The notes under the pieces were generated by a model that saw nothing but the letters and a program-made list of their open reading frames with translations, was not told where the DNA came from and did not search any database. 64,000 bases of DNA from Escherichia coli (lineage in GTDB: Bacteria > Pseudomonadota > Gammaproteobacteria > Enterobacterales > Enterobacteriaceae): assembly GCF_003018255.1 (NCBI RefSeq), contig NZ_CP027440.1; one strand, 5' to 3'. The number at the start of each line of letters is the position of its first letter. The first letter of the stretch is position 1. Below, in pieces: positions 6,541 to 37,080 of the stretch. The position numbers were made by a program, and so were the translations under genes.

Positions 6541-6660
6541 ATCTATGTCGCATCCGGCATTCGGCACACGCTGCCTGATGCGACGCTGGCGCGTCTTATC
6601 AGGCCTACAATTGGTGCAGGATCGGTAGACCGGATAAGGCGTTCACGCCGCATCTGGCAA
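6541..6660. repeat. REP/BIME-type repetitive extragenic palindromes
   Basis: Motifs gatgcgacgctggcgcgtcttatcaggcctac and ccggataaggcgttcacgccgcatc in inverted orientation between fre and fadA. Confidence 0.6.
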
Positions 6661-14585: not shown

Positions 14586-16127
<1,542 letters not shown>

Positions 16128-16195
16128 CCTTAAAGAAGCGTACTTTGCAGTGCTCACACAGATTGTCTGATGAAAATGAGCAGTAAAACCTCTAC

Positions 16196-16272
<77 letters not shown>

Positions 16273-16314
16273 AATTTGCACGGCAAATTTGAAGAGGTTT
16301 TAACTACATGTTAT

Positions 16315-16390
16315 GGGGCTATAGCTCAGCTGGGAGAGCGCCTGCTTTGCACGCAGGAGGTCTGCGGTTCGATCCCGCATAGCTCCACCA
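16315..16390 (+). tRNA. alaT: tRNA-Ala (anticodon TGC) in the 16S-23S spacer
   Basis: ggggctatagctcagctgggagagcgcctgctttgcacgcaggaggtctgcggttcgatcccgcatagctccacca. Confidence 0.97.
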
Positions 16391-16564
16391 TCTCTGTAGT
16401 GATTAAATAAAAAATACTTCAGAGTGTACCTGCAAAGGTTCACTGCGAAGTTTTGCTCTTTAAAAATCTGGATCAAGCTGAAAATTGAAACACTGAACAA
16501 CGAAAGTTGTTCGTGAGTCTCTCAAATTTTCGCAACTCTGAAGTGAAACATCTTCGGGTTGTGA

Positions 16565-19470
<2,906 letters not shown>

Positions 19471-19567
19471 ACAACGCCGAAGATGTTTTGGCGGATGAGA
19501 GAAGATTTTCAGCCTGATACAGATTAAATCGACATGTCATAACGAGACGTGTTGATAAAACAGAATT

Positions 19568-19687
19568 TGCCTGGCGGCCTTAGCGCGGTGGTCCCACCTG
19601 ACCCCATGCCGAACTCAGAAGTGAAACGCCGTAGCGCCGATGGTAGTGTGGGGTCTCCCCATGCGAGAGTAGGGAACTGCCAGGCAT
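19568..19687 (+). rRNA. rrfA: 5S ribosomal RNA
   Basis: tgcctggcggccttagcgcggtggtcccacctgacccc ... gggaactgccaggcat; 120 nt. Confidence 0.97.
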
Positions 19688-28634: not shown

Positions 28635-28782
28635 GATTCGCCTGAACATGCCCTTTTTTCGTAAGTAAGCAACATAAGCTGTCACGTTTTGTGATGGCTA
28701 TTAGAAATTCCTATGCAACAACTGAAAAAAAATTACAAAAAATGCTTTCTGAACTGAACAAAAAAGAGTAAAGTTAGTCGCG

Positions 28783-28891
28783 TAGGGTACAGAGGTAAGA
28801 TGTTCTATCTTTCAGACCTTTTACTTCACGTAATCGGATTTGGCTGAATATTTTAGCCGCCCCAGTCAGTAATGACTGGGGCGTTTTTTAT
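28783..28891 (+). ncRNA. spf: Spot 42 small regulatory RNA
   Basis: gtagggtacagaggtaagatgttctatctttcagacc ... cccagtcagtaatgactggggcgtttttta; intrinsic terminator; location just 3' of polA. Confidence 0.9.
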
Positions 28892-29860: not shown

Positions 29861-30104
29861 ATAGAGCGAGGACGCTAACAGGAACAATGACTCAGGATGA
29901 GGGTCAGGAGCGCCAGGAGGCGAAGACAGAGGATTGTCAGGAAGATAAACGTCCGGAGACGTAATTAAACGGAAATGGAATCAACACGGATTGTTCCGGC
30001 TAATGGAAAAACAGGGTGTGTTGGCGGCCTGCAAGGATTGTAAGACCCGTTAAGGGTTATGAGTCAGGAAAAAAGGCGACAGAGTAATCTGTCGCCTTTT
30101 TTCT
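29861..30104 (+). ncRNA. csrC: CsrC small RNA (CsrA-sequestering)
   Basis: About 245 nt with many GGA motifs in predicted loops (caggaa, caggatga, caggag, caggagg, caggaag, acggattg, caaggattg, tcaggaa), ending in terminator gcgacagagtaatctgtcgccttttttc; position between engB and yihI. Confidence 0.85.
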
Positions 30105-30171
30105 TTGCTTGCTTTCTGTTAGATTCCGCCGCAAATCTATACTGAATAAAACGGCTAAAAGACGAACCATT

Positions 30172-30869: not shown

Positions 30870-32243
30870 ATGTCTGTACAGCAAATCGACTGGGATCTGG
30901 CCCTGATCCAGAAATATAACTATTCCGGGCCACGATACACCTCGTACCCGACCGCGCTGGAGTTTTCAGAAGACTTCGGCGAACAGGCGTTTTTACAAGC
31001 CGTGGCGCGCTATCCTGAGCGTCCATTATCTCTCTACGTACATATTCCGTTCTGCCATAAGCTTTGTTACTTCTGCGGTTGCAATAAGATAGTTACTCGC
31101 CAGCAGCACAAGGCCGATCAGTATCTGGACGCGCTGGAGCAAGAAATCGTCCATCGTGCACCGCTGTTCGCCGGGCGTCACGTCAGCCAATTGCACTGGG
31201 GCGGCGGAACGCCGACGTATCTGAATAAAGCGCAAATCAGCCGTCTGATGAAGCTGCTGCGCGAAAACTTCCAGTTCAATGCCGATGCGGAGATCTCGAT
31301 CGAAGTCGATCCGCGGGAAATCGAACTGGATGTACTCGATCATTTACGCGCCGAAGGCTTTAATCGCCTGAGCATGGGCGTGCAGGACTTCAACAAAGAA
31401 GTGCAACGTCTGGTTAACCGCGAGCAGGATGAAGAGTTCATCTTTGCACTGCTTAACCATGCGCGTGAGATTGGCTTTACCTCCACCAACATCGACCTGA
31501 TTTACGGCCTGCCGAAACAGACGCCGGAGAGTTTCGCCTTTACCCTGAAACGTGTGGCGGAGCTGAACCCCGATCGTCTGAGTGTCTTTAACTACGCGCA
31601 TCTGCCGACCATTTTTGCTGCTCAGCGCAAAATCAAAGATGCTGACCTGCCGAGTCCGCAGCAAAAACTCGATATCCTGCAGGAAACCATCGCCTTCCTG
31701 ACACAATCGGGCTATCAGTTTATCGGTATGGATCACTTTGCCCGTCCGGATGACGAGCTGGCGGTGGCCCAGCGTGAAGGCGTGCTGCATCGTAACTTCC
31801 AGGGCTACACCACTCAGGGCGATACCGATCTGCTGGGGATGGGCGTTTCCGCCATCAGCATGATTGGCGACTGCTACGCGCAGAACCAGAAAGAGTTGAA
31901 GCAGTACTATCAGCAAGTGGATGAACAAGGCAATGCGCTGTGGCGTGGTATTGCGCTAACGCGTGATGACTGTATTCGCCGCGATGTGATTAAGTCGCTC
32001 ATCTGCAACTTCCGTCTGGATTACGCTCCCATTGAGCAACAGTGGGATTTGCTCTTCGCTGATTACTTTGCCGAAGATCTCAAGCTGCTCGCCCCGTTAG
32101 CAAAAGATGGGCTGGTGGATGTGGATGAGAAGGGAATACAGGTGACGGCGAAAGGTCGCTTGCTGATCCGCAACATTTGCATGTGCTTTGATACCTATCT
32201 GCGCCAGAAAGCGCGGATGCAGCAGTTCTCTCGGGTGATTTAA
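30870..32243 (+). CDS. hemN: Oxygen-independent coproporphyrinogen III oxidase HemN (radical SAM, 457 aa)
   Basis: ORF-track frame 30864..32243; radical-SAM cysteine cluster CHKLCYFCGC. Confidence 0.93.
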   Translation: MSVQQIDWDLALIQKYNYSGPRYTSYPTALEFSEDFGEQAFLQAVARYPERPLSLYVHIPFCHKLCYFCGCNKIVTRQQHKADQYLDALEQEIVHRAPLFAGRHVSQLHWGGGTPTYLNKAQISRLMKLLRENFQFNADAEISIEVDPREIELDVLDHLRAEGFNRLSMGVQDFNKEVQRLVNREQDEEFIFALLNHAREIGFTSTNIDLIYGLPKQTPESFAFTLKRVAELNPDRLSVFNYAHLPTIFAAQRKIKDADLPSPQQKLDILQETIAFLTQSGYQFIGMDHFARPDDELAVAQREGVLHRNFQGYTTQGDTDLLGMGVSAISMIGDCYAQNQKELKQYYQQVDEQGNALWRGIALTRDDCIRRDVIKSLICNFRLDYAPIEQQWDLLFADYFAEDLKLLAPLAKDGLVDVDEKGIQVTAKGRLLIRNICMCFDTYLRQKARMQQFSRVI

Positions 32244-32289
32244 ATTGTGAATGGCGCTTCGTTTACAAAGTAGAAAACGAAAGCGCCAT

Positions 32290-32400
32290 CAATGTGCTGA
32301 GAACAAGATTGCCTGATGCGCTACGCTTATCAGGCCTGCAAAATCTGTTGAAAATATTGCTTTTGTAGGCCGGATAAGGCGTTCACGCCGCATCCGGCAT
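32290..32400. repeat. REP/BIME palindromic elements
   Basis: gcctgatgcgctacgcttatcaggcctgc ... gtaggccggataaggcgttcacgccgcatccggca. Confidence 0.6.
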
Positions 32401-32432
32401 GAACAAAGAGCACTTCATCAGCAATCTGAAAC

Positions 32433-32543
32433 TCAACTAAACAGCCCAATCATCGCGGCACACAGCACGGCAGCAACAGCAGTTTGCGGTGTGTGGCTGT
32501 CAACTGCGCCACTCGATACCAGATTAATTATTGATTCCAGCAT
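32433..32543 (-). CDS. yshB: Small hydrophobic protein YshB (36 aa)
   Basis: Minus-strand ORF (below the ORF-track size cutoff) encoding MLESIINLVSSGAVDSHTPQTAVAAVLCAAMIGLFS between hemN and glnG. Confidence 0.6.
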   Translation of the reverse strand: MLESIINLVSSGAVDSHTPQTAVAAVLCAAMIGLFS

Positions 32544-32654
32544 AATGACTCTCCCCGTTTTCCGGGCAAGATCATACTGAACTTATCGGAACAGTAAAGC
32601 GCAAAACACCAGCAATTTGCGCTCAATAATCAATCTTTACACACAAGCCGTGAA

Positions 32655-34064
32655 TCACTCCATCCCCAGCTCTTTTAACTTCCGCGTCAGAGTGTTACGC
32701 CCCCAGCCGAGTAGCCGCGCCGCTTCCTGTTTATGCCCTTGCGTATGTCGCAACGCGGTCGTCAGTAACGTCCGCTCCAGCTCAGGCTGCGCTTCGGAAA
32801 GCAGATTTTGATGACCGGAACGCAGCGCTCTGTCTGCCCACTGCGCTAAAAGTGTCGCCCAACTGTCCGGTTGCATTTGAGAAGTACTCTCCGCAACCGT
32901 TGATTCAAACAGTTCACCGGGCAAATCCTGAATCAACACTTCCTGCCCGGCGGCCATCACCGTTAGCCAGCGACAGGTGTTTTCCAGCTGGCGCACGTTC
33001 CCCGGCCACGCCAGGCGCGTCAGCGCGGCTTCGGTTTCCGGATGCAGCAACTTCGCTTCTACGCCCAGTTCGCGCGCGGCAACCTGTAAAAAATGGCGTG
33101 CCAGACGGGGAATATCTTCCCGACGCTCACGCAGTGGCGGCAGATGAACGCGGATGACGTTCAGGCGGTGGAACAGATCCTCACGGAACTTACCTTCCTG
33201 CACCCGCTGTTCAAGATTCTGGTGAGTGGCAGCGATAATCCGCACATCTACTTTCACCGGCGCATAGCCGCCAACGCGATAAAACTGACCATCTGCCAGT
33301 ACGCGCAGCAAACGCGTCTGCACATCCAGCGGCATATCGCCAATTTCATCGAGGAATAATGTGCCACCATCAGCCTGTTCAAAACGCCCCTGACGAATGG
33401 TATTCGCGCCGGTAAATGCGCCTTTCTCGTGACCAAACAGTTCGGATTCGATCAAATCCTTCGGGATAGCCGCCATATTGAGCGCGATAAACGGCGCTTT
33501 GGCTCGCGGACTGTGGCGATGCAGGGCATGAGCGACCAGTTCTTTACCGGTGCCGGACTCGCCGTTAATCAGCACGCTAATAGAAGAACGCGAAAGCCGA
33601 CCGATAATCCGGAACACGTCCTGCATGGCTGGCGCTTCACCGATGATATCGGTCGTTGGGCCGTTAAGCTGAACATTACGCGGCTGCTGCTGTTCCTGGT
33701 AATGACTGATGGCGCGCTCAACCAGCGCCACGGCTTCGTCGATATCAAACGGTTTGGGCAGATAATCAAATGCCCCTTGTTGATAGGCGCTGACGGCAGC
33801 ATCCAGATCGGAATGTGCGGTCATAATGATGACCGGAAGCATCGGATGGCGCTGTTTAATCTGCTTGAGCAGCGCCAGCCCGTCCATTCCCGGCATACGG
33901 ATATCTGAAAGCAGCACATCCGGCGTTTTGCTCGCCAGCGCCTCCAGTACCTCCGCGCCGTTCTCAAATGTTGTACAGGTTAAACCCGCTCCAGCGAGCG
34001 CACGTTCAAGCACCCAACGGATGGAACTATCGTCATCGACTACCCAGACTATCCCTCGTTGCAT
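32655..34064 (-). CDS. glnG: Nitrogen regulation response regulator NtrC (sigma-54 enhancer-binding protein, 469 aa)
   Basis: ORF-track frame 32655..34124 minus; start placed at [18 protein letters not shown]; receiver domain, AAA+ GAFTGA motif, C-terminal HTH. Confidence 0.95.
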
Positions 34065-35125: not shown

Positions 35126-35211
35126 AAAGCAGTCTCCTGAACAGGTTGCACCATTTTAGTGCATTATAGCTTTTTACGGATAAAAAGCGCGAAGCATCAG
35201 AGAATTGACGG

Positions 35212-35238
35212 AGAAAAAAGCCCATGCAGAGATGGGCT
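35212..35238 (-). terminator. Terminator after glnA
   Basis: Minus-strand hairpin cccatctctgcatggg followed by a T-run. Confidence 0.55.
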
Positions 35239-35298
35239 GAAAGTTTCCACGGCAACTAAATCCCGGCGTTGTTGCGCCGGGTAGTACAACTTCAACTA

Positions 35299-36790: not shown

Positions 36791-36930
36791 AAGCGAAAAC
36801 TGTGCCAACTTTTAAATTGCCCCTAAAAGGCGTTATCATGCTTAACATCGTGCAAAAGGGCTGCACCATGATGTGAATGTTGCACCAATATAGTGCTTCA
36901 ATGGAAACATTAAGCACCATATTGGTGCAA
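36791..36930 (-). promoter_or_regulatory. glnA control region: sigma-54 promoter glnAp2 (TGGCAC-N5-TCGCT) and upstream NtrC enhancer sites
   Basis: Minus-strand ttggcacagttttcgct at 36791-36808; NtrC-like palindromes tgcaccaatatagtgct (36881-36897) and gcaccatattggtgca (36914-36929). Confidence 0.75.
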
Positions 36931-37080
36931 TGACCTTTGGATAACCCTTTTTATGCTCCGTGAAAGCGATCACAAAGGGACTCTGCAATACTTGTTTGCG
37001 GAGGATGTTTGTGATCCTGTTTTGTAGTGCGATTAATCCGTGTACAATAACGCGCTATTTCTAATGCCTGAGGCAAAGTT

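What the first reader, a model, noticed from the sequence alone, without database searches (positions are those of the whole stretch)
32433..32543. Unlisted 36-codon ORF (yshB-like) between hemN and glnG
The minus-strand ORF MLESIINLVSSGAVDSHTPQTAVAAVLCAAMIGLFS is below the ORF-track cutoff. It encodes a small hydrophobic peptide typical of membrane microproteins and sits next to REP elements.
Basis: partly seen in the sequence, partly recalled or inferred. Interest (0 to 1): 0.25.

Follow-up and report, generated by a model that had tools for sequence, protein, structure and literature searches.

The report
Known small membrane protein gene yshB
The 36-codon reading frame is real, but it is the known and annotated E. 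coli gene yshB, a small conserved membrane peptide downstream of the nitrogen regulator gene glnG, so the finding is correct and ordinary.

Summary
It is not merely yshB-like. It is identical to E. coli K-12 YshB (b4686, UniProt YSHB_ECOLI). RefSeq annotates it as "YshB family small membrane protein", and it scores 72 bits against NCBIfam NF033841 (cut-off 34). The locus is present in 5425 of 5426 complete E. coli genomes.

In 62 species-representative Enterobacterales genomes the frame is kept:
- ATG start, 35-41 codons in the 60 uncut loci, and only in-frame indels
- the same position, glnG then about 112 nt then yshB, convergent with hemN
- dN/dS of 0.00-0.26, with variation concentrated at third codon positions

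It has its own conserved sigma-70-type promoter (invariant CTTTAC, then GTATGAT) and a strong G-rich ribosome-binding site. Downstream are two REP elements and the hemN hairpin.

Published work has detected the native peptide by top-down mass spectrometry, shown cleavage by the intramembrane protease RseP, and linked the Salmonella ortholog to intracellular replication. Its molecular partner is unknown. I infer that it is a partner-binding inner-membrane peptide.

Novelty: already known. Interest is low.

The parts
32433..32543 (-). yshB coding sequence, 36 codons plus a TGA stop. Encodes MLESIINLVSSGAVDSHTPQTAVAAVLCAAMIGLFS.
   Evidence: The ORF is listed. It is identical to YSHB_ECOLI. RefSeq annotates it as a CDS. 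NCBIfam NF033841 scores 72.1 bits against a cut-off of 34. The frame is conserved in 62 genomes with dN/dS of 0.00-0.26.
32549..32556 (-). Shine-Dalgarno sequence GGGGAGAG, 5 nt upstream of the ATG.
   Evidence: Read directly from the sequence. A G-rich run (GGGGG or GGAG) sits at the same distance in all 60 loci that include the region upstream of the ATG.
32571..32598 (-). yshB's own sigma-70-type promoter: -35 TTTACT (32598-32593), a 16-nt spacer, and -10 TATGAT (32576-32571). The predicted transcription start is near 32564, giving a 5' UTR of about 21 nt.
   Evidence: It is the only promoter-like site in 32200-32800. CTTTAC is invariant and GTATGAT nearly invariant across 26-59 genomes, while the spacer sequence varies. 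PMC9731577 states that Salmonella yshB has its own promoter. The transcription start position is inferred, not measured here.
32612..32641 (-). Conserved upstream DNA block TGTAAAGATTGATTATTGAGCGCAAATTGC, about -48 to -77 from the predicted start. A candidate regulator-binding or UP-like region. Its role is unknown.
   Evidence: TGTAAAG and GCGCAAA are conserved in Enterobacteriaceae. The hairpin that overlaps its 3' part and the -35 element shows no supporting RNA covariation: consensus -1.4 kcal/mol and 0 compensatory pairs.
32365..32398 (-). REP element (GCCGGATGCGGCGTGAACGCCTTATCCGGCCTAC) in the yshB 3' region, 35 nt after the stop codon.
   Evidence: Inverted repeat I2. A second copy in the window lies at 6625-6658 with 2 mismatches, where 0 are expected by chance. 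Partial Rfam naRNA4 (REP-derived) match, E = 2.5e-5, below the gathering score.
32311..32335 (-). Core of the second REP element (GCCTGATAAGCGTAGCGCATCAGGC). Together with the first it forms a BIME-like pair.
   Evidence: REP core motif search. The whole 3' region folds at -78.7 kcal/mol, z = -7.2.
32251..32289 (.). GC-rich hairpin next to the hemN stop codon (ATGGCGCTTCGTTT...AAACGAAAGCGCCAT). A likely two-way transcript end for the convergent genes hemN and yshB.
   Evidence: Fold. Other genera carry either REPs or a classic two-way terminator hairpin in the same spacer. The simple terminator scan did not call it, because there is no T-run.
32655..34064 (-). glnG (ntrC), the upstream neighbour on the same strand. 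Its stop codon is 111 nt before the yshB ATG.
   Evidence: RefSeq annotation. tblastn finds glnG upstream of yshB in every locus that extends that far.

Best explanation
The ORF is the established E. coli gene yshB (b4686).

Shown here:
- It is a separate small gene lying 111 nt downstream of glnG and convergent with hemN.
- It has its own conserved sigma-70-type promoter, a 5' UTR of about 21 nt, and a strong Shine-Dalgarno sequence.
- The 36-codon frame is under purifying selection throughout Enterobacterales.
- Its transcript region ends in REP and terminator hairpins.

Taken from the literature:
- The native peptide is made; it has been detected by top-down mass spectrometry.
- It is reported as abundant in stationary phase.
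- The intramembrane protease RseP cleaves it in vivo and in vitro.
- It is not induced by nitrogen limitation, despite its position next to glnALG.
- The Salmonella ortholog (92% identical) promotes intracellular replication.

Inferred mechanism:
- The peptide forms an N-terminal amphipathic helix (residues 2-13) lying on the membrane surface, and a C-terminal helix (17-35) that spans or is buried in the inner membrane.
- The nearly invariant block S16-H-T-P-Q-T-A22, together with A24, A25, C28 and A29 (small and polar residues), is a helix-packing surface.
- Through that surface YshB binds and modulates a larger inner-membrane protein, as other small membrane proteins do (MgrB with PhoQ, AcrZ with AcrB, MgtS with MgtA).
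- RseP turnover limits its level.

My confidence that this is the real, translated, known yshB gene is about 0.98. That it is membrane-integral, about 0.8. That it works by binding a larger membrane protein, about 0.4.
For: Identity and annotation:
- Exact sequence match to YSHB_ECOLI, and to proteins named YshB in E. coli and Shigella.
- RefSeq CDS yshB in K-12 and in other strains.
- NF033841 equivalog match, 72.1 bits against a cut-off of 34.

Coding constraint:
- 62 loci, all with an ATG start; the 60 that are not cut by a contig end are 35-41 aa, with in-frame indels only.
- 61 distinct DNA sequences encode only 37 distinct proteins. Entropy at codon positions 1/2/3 is 0.49/0.24/1.16, and dN/dS is 0.00-0.26.
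- Invariant residues are M1, H17, P19, Q20, T21, A22, A25, C28 and A29.

Genomic context and expression signals:
- glnG-yshB-hemN order is conserved.
- The promoter and Shine-Dalgarno sequence are conserved.

Peptide shape:
- AlphaFold2 predicts helices at 2-13 and 17-35, mean pLDDT 76.
- The N-terminal 11-mer has a hydrophobic moment of 0.50, and residues 21-36 have a Kyte-Doolittle mean of 2.2.
- The least conserved positions in helix 2 (V23, V26, A30) lie on one stripe.

Literature:
- RseP cleavage in four assays (PMC10470546).
- Own promoter, and not induced by nitrogen limitation (PMC9731577).
- Native protein detected by top-down MS (PMC12529367).
- Predicted at more than 11,000 copies per stationary-phase cell (PMC7549839).
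Against: No partner is known, and none can be derived from these data.
- The family profile matches no chain in the PDB, so YshB has not been seen as a subunit of any solved complex.
- The one-sidedness of conservation on helix 2 is only suggestive (permutation p = 0.06).

The peptide is atypical for a single-pass membrane protein.
- Only 1 of 40 family members has any Lys or Arg.
- The best 19-residue Kyte-Doolittle window scores 1.53, just below the usual value of about 1.6.
- Topology therefore cannot be predicted from the positive-inside rule.

[quoted passage not shown] The RseP assays used N-terminally tagged constructs, which the authors say may alter topology. I could not read the primary Salmonella virulence paper (Bomjan et al. 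2019) or the discovery paper (Hemm et al. 2008), as neither is held. Their content is cited second-hand.
Confidence: 0.85

Rival explanations
1. YshB is a real, translated peptide but not an integral membrane protein. On this reading it is a peripheral or soluble two-helix amphipathic peptide that acts at the membrane surface or in the cytoplasm.
For: The strongly hydrophobic stretch is only 15-16 residues long. The best 19-residue Kyte-Doolittle window scores 1.53. There are no basic flanking residues. K-12 RefSeq calls it only "uncharacterized protein YshB". [quoted passage not shown]
Against: RseP cleaves within membrane-spanning segments, and it cut YshB in three in vivo assays and with purified enzyme. 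TMHMM or TOPCONS predicted a single span for every protein in that screen. The AlphaFold2 helix at 17-35 is 19 residues, long enough to span the hydrophobic core. NCBIfam names the family a small membrane protein.
Confidence: 0.12
2. The conserved unit is an RNA, either a small RNA or a 3' UTR element of the glnALG operon, and the ORF is incidental.
For: The locus lies directly downstream of glnG. In Pseudomonas a small RNA (NrsZ) occupies the position downstream of ntrBC (PMC9731577). There is a 14-nt complementarity between the glnG-proximal spacer and codons 4-8.
Against: Substitutions follow a codon pattern, with entropy at position 3 far above positions 1 and 2, and dN/dS of 0.00-0.26. 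Indels are all multiples of 3. The ATG and Shine-Dalgarno sequence are conserved. No Rfam family matches apart from the REP-derived hit. No covariation supports a structure. The peptide itself has been detected.
Confidence: 0.02
3. YshB is a Hok-like type I toxin: a small hydrophobic peptide that damages the membrane when it is made.
For: It is small and hydrophobic. It falls in the same class I group of RseP substrates as HokB and HokE.
Against: It has a strong conserved promoter and Shine-Dalgarno sequence and a short 5' UTR. No antisense promoter-like site or small RNA was found in 32200-32800. It is a single-copy core gene in a fixed position in 5425 of 5426 E. coli genomes. It is reported at more than 11,000 copies per stationary-phase cell without toxicity. 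Loss of the gene reduces Salmonella fitness in host cells rather than improving it (citing Bomjan 2019).
Confidence: 0.02
4. The ORF is a chance open frame in an intergenic region.
For: Short ORFs are very common. There are 88 of at least 20 aa in the surrounding 5.5 kb.
Against: All of the conservation, annotation and proteomic evidence above.
Confidence: 0.01

Closest known systems
E. coli K-12 YshB (b4686, YP_002791260.1, UniProt YSHB_ECOLI)
   Same: The 36-aa sequence is identical, and so is the position between hemN and glnG.
   Different: Only the flanks differ. The hemN-yshB spacer is 189 nt with 2 REPs here, against 228 nt with 3 REPs in K-12, and the first nucleotides after the stop codon differ.
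Salmonella enterica YshB (reported as required for intracellular replication and virulence; Bomjan et al. 2019, cited in PMC10470546 and PMC9731577)
   Same: 92% identical (33 of 36; V23L, M31L, I32V). Same length, same synteny, and the same promoter and Shine-Dalgarno layout.
   Different: The virulence phenotype is defined only in Salmonella. No phenotype for E. coli yshB turned up in the papers I searched.
Small inner-membrane regulatory peptides of E. coli (MgrB-PhoQ, AcrZ-AcrB, MgtS-MgtA, CydX in cytochrome bd)
   Same: It is under 50 aa, has one hydrophobic helix, and is a separately transcribed small gene. It was found by the same comparative-genomics and ribosome-binding-site approach, and it is an RseP substrate like MgrB and CydX. 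This is a functional analogy drawn from established knowledge of those systems.
   Different: There is no sequence similarity to any of them, no Pfam family, no known partner, and no basic residues to fix its orientation. The hydrophobic helix sits at the extreme C-terminus.
REP/BIME elements of E. coli
   Same: The two palindromic units after yshB match the REP consensus and recur elsewhere in the window.
   Different: They are flanking elements and not part of the gene. Their number varies between strains.

Membership tests
NCBIfam NF033841 small_YshB (equivalog) | HMM score at or above the curated cut-off over the full length | tested here: met
   72.1 bits against a cut-off of 34, E = 2.4e-20, residues 1-36 on profile positions 1-40.
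NCBIfam NF033841 small_YshB (equivalog) | Sequence identity to the named reference protein YshB of E. coli K-12 | tested here: met
   Exact-sequence look-up returns YSHB_ECOLI and "YshB family small membrane protein". K-12 b4686 sits at the same locus.
NCBIfam NF033841 small_YshB (equivalog) | Conserved core motif and size (35-41 aa; S-H-T-P-Q-T-A ... C-A) | tested here: met
   H17, P19, Q20, T21, A22, A25, C28 and A29 are invariant in 40 distinct members, and the window peptide has all of them.
NCBIfam NF033841 small_YshB (equivalog) | Orthologous genomic position (downstream of glnG, convergent with hemN) | tested here: met
   tblastn finds glnG upstream in every locus that extends that far, and hemN downstream in all but one, Brenneria.
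Single-pass small inner-membrane proteins (class of Hemm et al. 2008) | 50 aa or fewer, encoded by an independently translated small ORF with its own ribosome-binding site | tested here: met
   36 aa, with a conserved GGGGAGAG-type Shine-Dalgarno sequence 5 nt from the ATG.
Single-pass small inner-membrane proteins (class of Hemm et al. 2008) | One hydrophobic helix long enough to span the bilayer | tested here: inconclusive
   The AlphaFold2 helix at 17-35 is 19 residues. However, the strongly hydrophobic part is only residues 21-36, and the best 19-residue Kyte-Doolittle window scores 1.53.
Single-pass small inner-membrane proteins (class of Hemm et al. 2008) | Basic residues flanking the helix that set its orientation (positive-inside rule) | tested here: not met
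   The window peptide has no Lys or Arg, and only 1 of 40 family members has any. Most members have 1-2 acidic residues.
Single-pass small inner-membrane proteins (class of Hemm et al. 2008) | Experimental membrane localisation | not testable with these tools
   There is only indirect literature evidence: cleavage by the intramembrane protease RseP in vivo and in vitro (PMC10470546).
Type I toxin (Hok-like) | Overlapping or adjacent antisense RNA and translationally repressed mRNA | tested here: not met
   No antisense promoter-like site and no small-RNA family in 32200-32800. The 5' UTR is short and the Shine-Dalgarno sequence is strong and exposed. These are simple scans and are not exhaustive.
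REP (repetitive extragenic palindrome) elements | Imperfect palindrome of about 35 nt matching the REP consensus and repeated in the genome | tested here: met
   32365-32398 is an inverted repeat. It recurs at 6625-6658 with 2 mismatches, where 0 are expected by chance.

The most novel reading that the evidence does not exclude
Besides encoding YshB, the locus may carry a device that insulates yshB from upstream read-through. The segment just 3' of the glnG stop codon (32623-32636) is present only in glnALG read-through transcripts. It can pair with yshB codons 4-8 (32521-32534) and could block yshB translation from those transcripts. That would explain why YshB is not induced under nitrogen limitation even though no clear terminator follows glnG. 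mRNA from yshB's own promoter starts downstream of this segment and would escape.
Probability: 0.06. Interest if true: 0.35.

Novelty: already known. Interest (0 to 1): 0.08.

Why it matters
For the scan, the result shows that the first stage can pick a real, functional micro-gene out of raw sequence below the ORF-track cut-off. It adds nothing new to biology, because yshB is named, annotated, detected as a protein, and partly characterised.

The open question is what YshB does at the molecular level, and it cannot be settled from sequence. This analysis gives experimenters concrete targets:
- an invariant S-H-T-P-Q-T-A...C-A core
- a family with almost no basic residues
- a conserved promoter with an unexplained conserved block upstream of it

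Tried and rejected
I used the exhaustive representative search instead. It found only 15 clusters, all YshB or read-through and frameshift variants of it.

2. Pfam has no family for it. A family-profile search of PDB sequences found no match even at E <= 10.

3. glnG terminator idea. The hairpin GAGCGCAAA...UUUGCGCUU overlapping the -35 element folds in E. coli. The consensus structure is only -1.4 kcal/mol with no compensatory pairs. The conservation is therefore better read as DNA-level (promoter or binding site). I do not claim a terminator.

4. Long-range pairing between the spacer and codons 4-8.
   - In a fixed register, 69.6% of cells are paired against 66.8% in shuffles, and double changes are not above shuffles (221 of 500).
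   - At the one position that looked compensatory, 45 of 59 sequences are unpaired. Citrobacter species with the same upstream base carry T, C or G at the ORF partner position.
   - Native duplexes are 1.4 kcal/mol better than cross-species ones, but that test is not corrected for phylogeny, and several genera have no pairing at all.
   - I rejected it as a supported feature and kept it as a low-probability novel case.

5. One-sided conservation on helix 2 is only suggestive (p = 0.06).

6. I did not run a fold search on the 36-aa model, because matches to a two-helix peptide would be meaningless.

7. The primary papers were not held: Hemm 2008, Hemm 2010, Fontaine 2011 and Bomjan 2019. A search for the locus tag b4686 returned only unrelated catalogue numbers.

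Full report
**Observation.** The window carries the ORF exactly as described: 32433..32543 on the minus strand, ATG start, 36 codons, TGA stop, translating to MLESIINLVSSGAVDSHTPQTAVAAVLCAAMIGLFS. It lies between hemN (30870..32243, +) and glnG (32655..34064, -). At 36 aa it falls below the 60-aa default of an ORF listing, which is why it was "unlisted". An ORF of this size means nothing on its own, since 88 ORFs of at least 20 aa overlap the surrounding 5.5 kb. The question was whether anything sets this one apart.

**Identity.** The window is E. coli chromosome.
- A 261-nt query over the locus matches 5425 of 5426 complete E. coli genomes at 95-100% identity. The feature under the match is annotated "yshB: YshB family small membrane protein".
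- 25 records sampled evenly down the ranking all carry the annotation.
- In K-12 MG1655 the gene is b4686, "uncharacterized protein YshB", in the same place.
- The exact 36-aa sequence is in the protein collection under the names YSHB_ECOLI and YshB family small membrane protein.
- It hits the NCBIfam equivalog model NF033841 small_YshB at 72.1 bits against a cut-off of 34.
- Pfam has no model for it.

The ORF is therefore not yshB-like. It is yshB.

**Independent test of coding.** An exhaustive HMMER search of 1.84 billion cluster representatives found only 15 hits. All were YshB or frameshift and read-through versions of it, so the family is narrow. A scan of one genome per GTDB species returned 62 loci, all in Enterobacterales:
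- Escherichia, Salmonella, Citrobacter, Enterobacter, Kosakonia, Trabulsiella, Pluralibacter, Franconibacter and Mangrovibacter
- a few Erwinia, Izhakiella and Pantoea, and one Brenneria

Every locus has an ATG start. The 60 loci that are not cut by a contig end have a 35-41-codon frame, length differences only in multiples of three, and a G-rich Shine-Dalgarno sequence at a fixed distance. glnG lies about 112 nt upstream on the same strand in every locus that extends that far. hemN is convergent downstream in all but Brenneria.

The 61 sequences compared (60 loci plus the window) are all distinct at the DNA level but encode only 37 distinct proteins. Entropy at codon positions 1, 2 and 3 is 0.49, 0.24 and 1.16. 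Pairwise dN/dS against the window is 0.00-0.26, even where dS is near saturation.

**Anatomy of the gene.**
- *Promoter.* The only sigma-70-like site in 32200-32800 is on the minus strand: TTTACT, 16 nt, TATGAT at 32598..32571. In alignments of 26 and 59 genomes, CTTTAC is invariant and GTATGAT almost invariant, while the spacer between them drifts. This is the signature of a working promoter. [quoted passage not shown] The predicted start near 32564 gives a leader of about 21 nt ending in GGGGAGAG-TCATT-ATG.
- *Upstream block.* Upstream of the -35 element there is a T-rich stretch and a further conserved block, TGTAAAGATTnATnATTGAGCGCAAAnTGC (32612-32641). Its role I could not establish. A hairpin overlapping the -35 folds in E. 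coli but has no covariation support.
- *3' region.* Downstream of the stop codon lie a perfect REP at 32365-32398, which recurs at 6625-6658, a second REP at 32311-32335, and a GC-rich hairpin next to hemN at 32251-32289. The whole 3' region folds at -78.7 kcal/mol, z = -7.2. Other genera have REPs or a textbook two-way terminator in this spacer. The claim that the ORF sits next to REP elements is correct.

**The peptide.**
- GRAVY is 1.12. There is no Lys or Arg, and there are two acidic residues.
- AlphaFold2, run with the family alignment, predicts two helices at 2-13 and 17-35, broken at V14-S16, with mean pLDDT 76.
- The N-terminal helix is amphipathic (hydrophobic moment 0.50). The strongly hydrophobic part is residues 21-36, and the best 19-residue Kyte-Doolittle window scores 1.53, which is borderline.
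- Across 40 distinct members, M1, H17, P19, Q20, T21, A22, A25, C28 and A29 are invariant. L2, E3, G12, S16, T18, A24, L27, A30 and F35 are nearly so. Only one member has any basic residue.
- The least conserved positions of helix 2 (V23, V26, A30) fall on one stripe, consistent with a lipid-facing side. The asymmetry is only suggestive (p = 0.06).
- No PDB chain resembles the family.

**What the literature adds.**
- YshB is one of six class I substrates of the intramembrane protease RseP. It tested positive in three in vivo assays and with purified enzyme, and it is also clipped by unidentified periplasmic proteases (PMC10470546). The authors caution that tags may alter topology.
- Native YshB was detected intact by top-down proteomics. 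It has no tryptic sites (PMC12529367).
- It was predicted to reach more than 11,000 copies per stationary-phase cell, yet a C-terminally His-tagged form was undetectable (PMC7549839; PMC10502375).
- The Salmonella ortholog promotes intracellular replication and virulence (Bomjan et al. 2019, cited). The paper itself was not available.
- A SNP in the yshB-glnG spacer arose in an E. coli evolution experiment but was not among the three mutations that improved phloroglucinol tolerance (PMC10874397).

**Mechanism.**
- *Shown:* a separately transcribed, efficiently translated, strongly constrained 36-aa peptide gene.
- *From the literature:* membrane association sufficient for RseP cleavage, high abundance in stationary phase, independence from nitrogen control, and a role in Salmonella intracellular growth.
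- *Inferred:* an amphipathic N-helix on the membrane surface and a C-terminal helix in the bilayer, whose invariant small and polar residues (HTPQTA, AA, CA) pack against a larger inner-membrane protein. This is the way MgrB, AcrZ, MgtS and CydX work. RseP would set the peptide's lifetime. I put this last step at about 0.4.
- *Rivals:* a peripheral, non-integral peptide (0.12), an RNA element with an incidental ORF (0.02), a Hok-like toxin (0.02), and a chance ORF (0.01).

**A side lead that did not hold up.** A 14-nt segment just after the glnG stop codon (32623-32636) is complementary to yshB codons 4-8 (32521-32534). Because the 5' arm lies upstream of the yshB promoter, the pairing could occur only in glnALG read-through RNA and might silence yshB there.
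- One apparent compensatory change (Ile ATA to ATT, matched by T to A upstream) and an alternative complement in Enterobacter hormaechei looked encouraging.
- On 59 sequences the fixed-register helix is paired in 69.6% of cells against 66.8% in shuffles. Double changes are not above shuffles. At the "compensatory" position 45 of 59 sequences are unpaired.
- Several genera have no pairing at all.

I keep this only as a low-probability novel case.

**Verdict.** The feature is the already known and already annotated gene yshB. Interest is low (0.08). The only open biology is YshB's molecular partner, which sequence analysis cannot supply.

Noticed in passing
window 32612-32641 (-): A conserved DNA block, TGTAAAGATTnATnATTGAGCGCAAAnTGC, lies between the glnG stop codon and the yshB -35 element, about -48 to -77 from the predicted start. 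It is conserved across Enterobacteriaceae with no RNA covariation. It may be an unidentified regulator-binding site.
   Followed up: partly
window 32521-32534 and 32623-32636: A 14-nt inverted repeat (13 Watson-Crick pairs plus 1 G-U) joins the spacer next to glnG to yshB codons 4-8. Covariation tests were weak or negative.
   Followed up: yes
window 29861-30114 (+): The CsrC small RNA lies here (Rfam, 276 bits). RefSeq record NZ_AP045067.1 annotates a "hypothetical protein, frameshifted; internal stop" pseudo-CDS inside it (about window 29887-30053). That annotation is probably spurious.
   Followed up: partly
window 32244-32432, compared with L064 (K-12), L003 and L005: The hemN-yshB spacer varies in REP content between Escherichia genomes. 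It is 189 nt with 2 REPs here, 228 nt with 3 in K-12, and 139 nt in E. whittamii. In Escherichia sp. MOD1-EC7003 it is 607 nt and includes a duplicated fragment of the hemN 3' end.
   Followed up: partly
window 35126-35298 (-), the glnA-glnL spacer: The GlnZ small-RNA region is 173 nt here and 285 nt in K-12. K-12 carries a REP-containing segment of about 145 nt that is absent here, and the first 34 nt or so after glnA differ. No Rfam family reached its gathering score in this spacer. PMC9731577 discusses variation in this 3' UTR.
   Followed up: partly
window 14586-19685, 28772-28890, 36892-36999 and 61554-61612: An rRNA operon with tRNA-Ile(GAT) and tRNA-Ala(TGC) in the spacer, Spot 42 small RNA, ES222 small RNA upstream of glnA, and a SECIS element on the minus strand. 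All are ordinary known features.
   Followed up: no
E. coli genome collection: One of 5426 complete E. coli genomes has no match to the yshB locus. Two matches lie on records labelled as plasmids. I did not examine either case.
   Followed up: no
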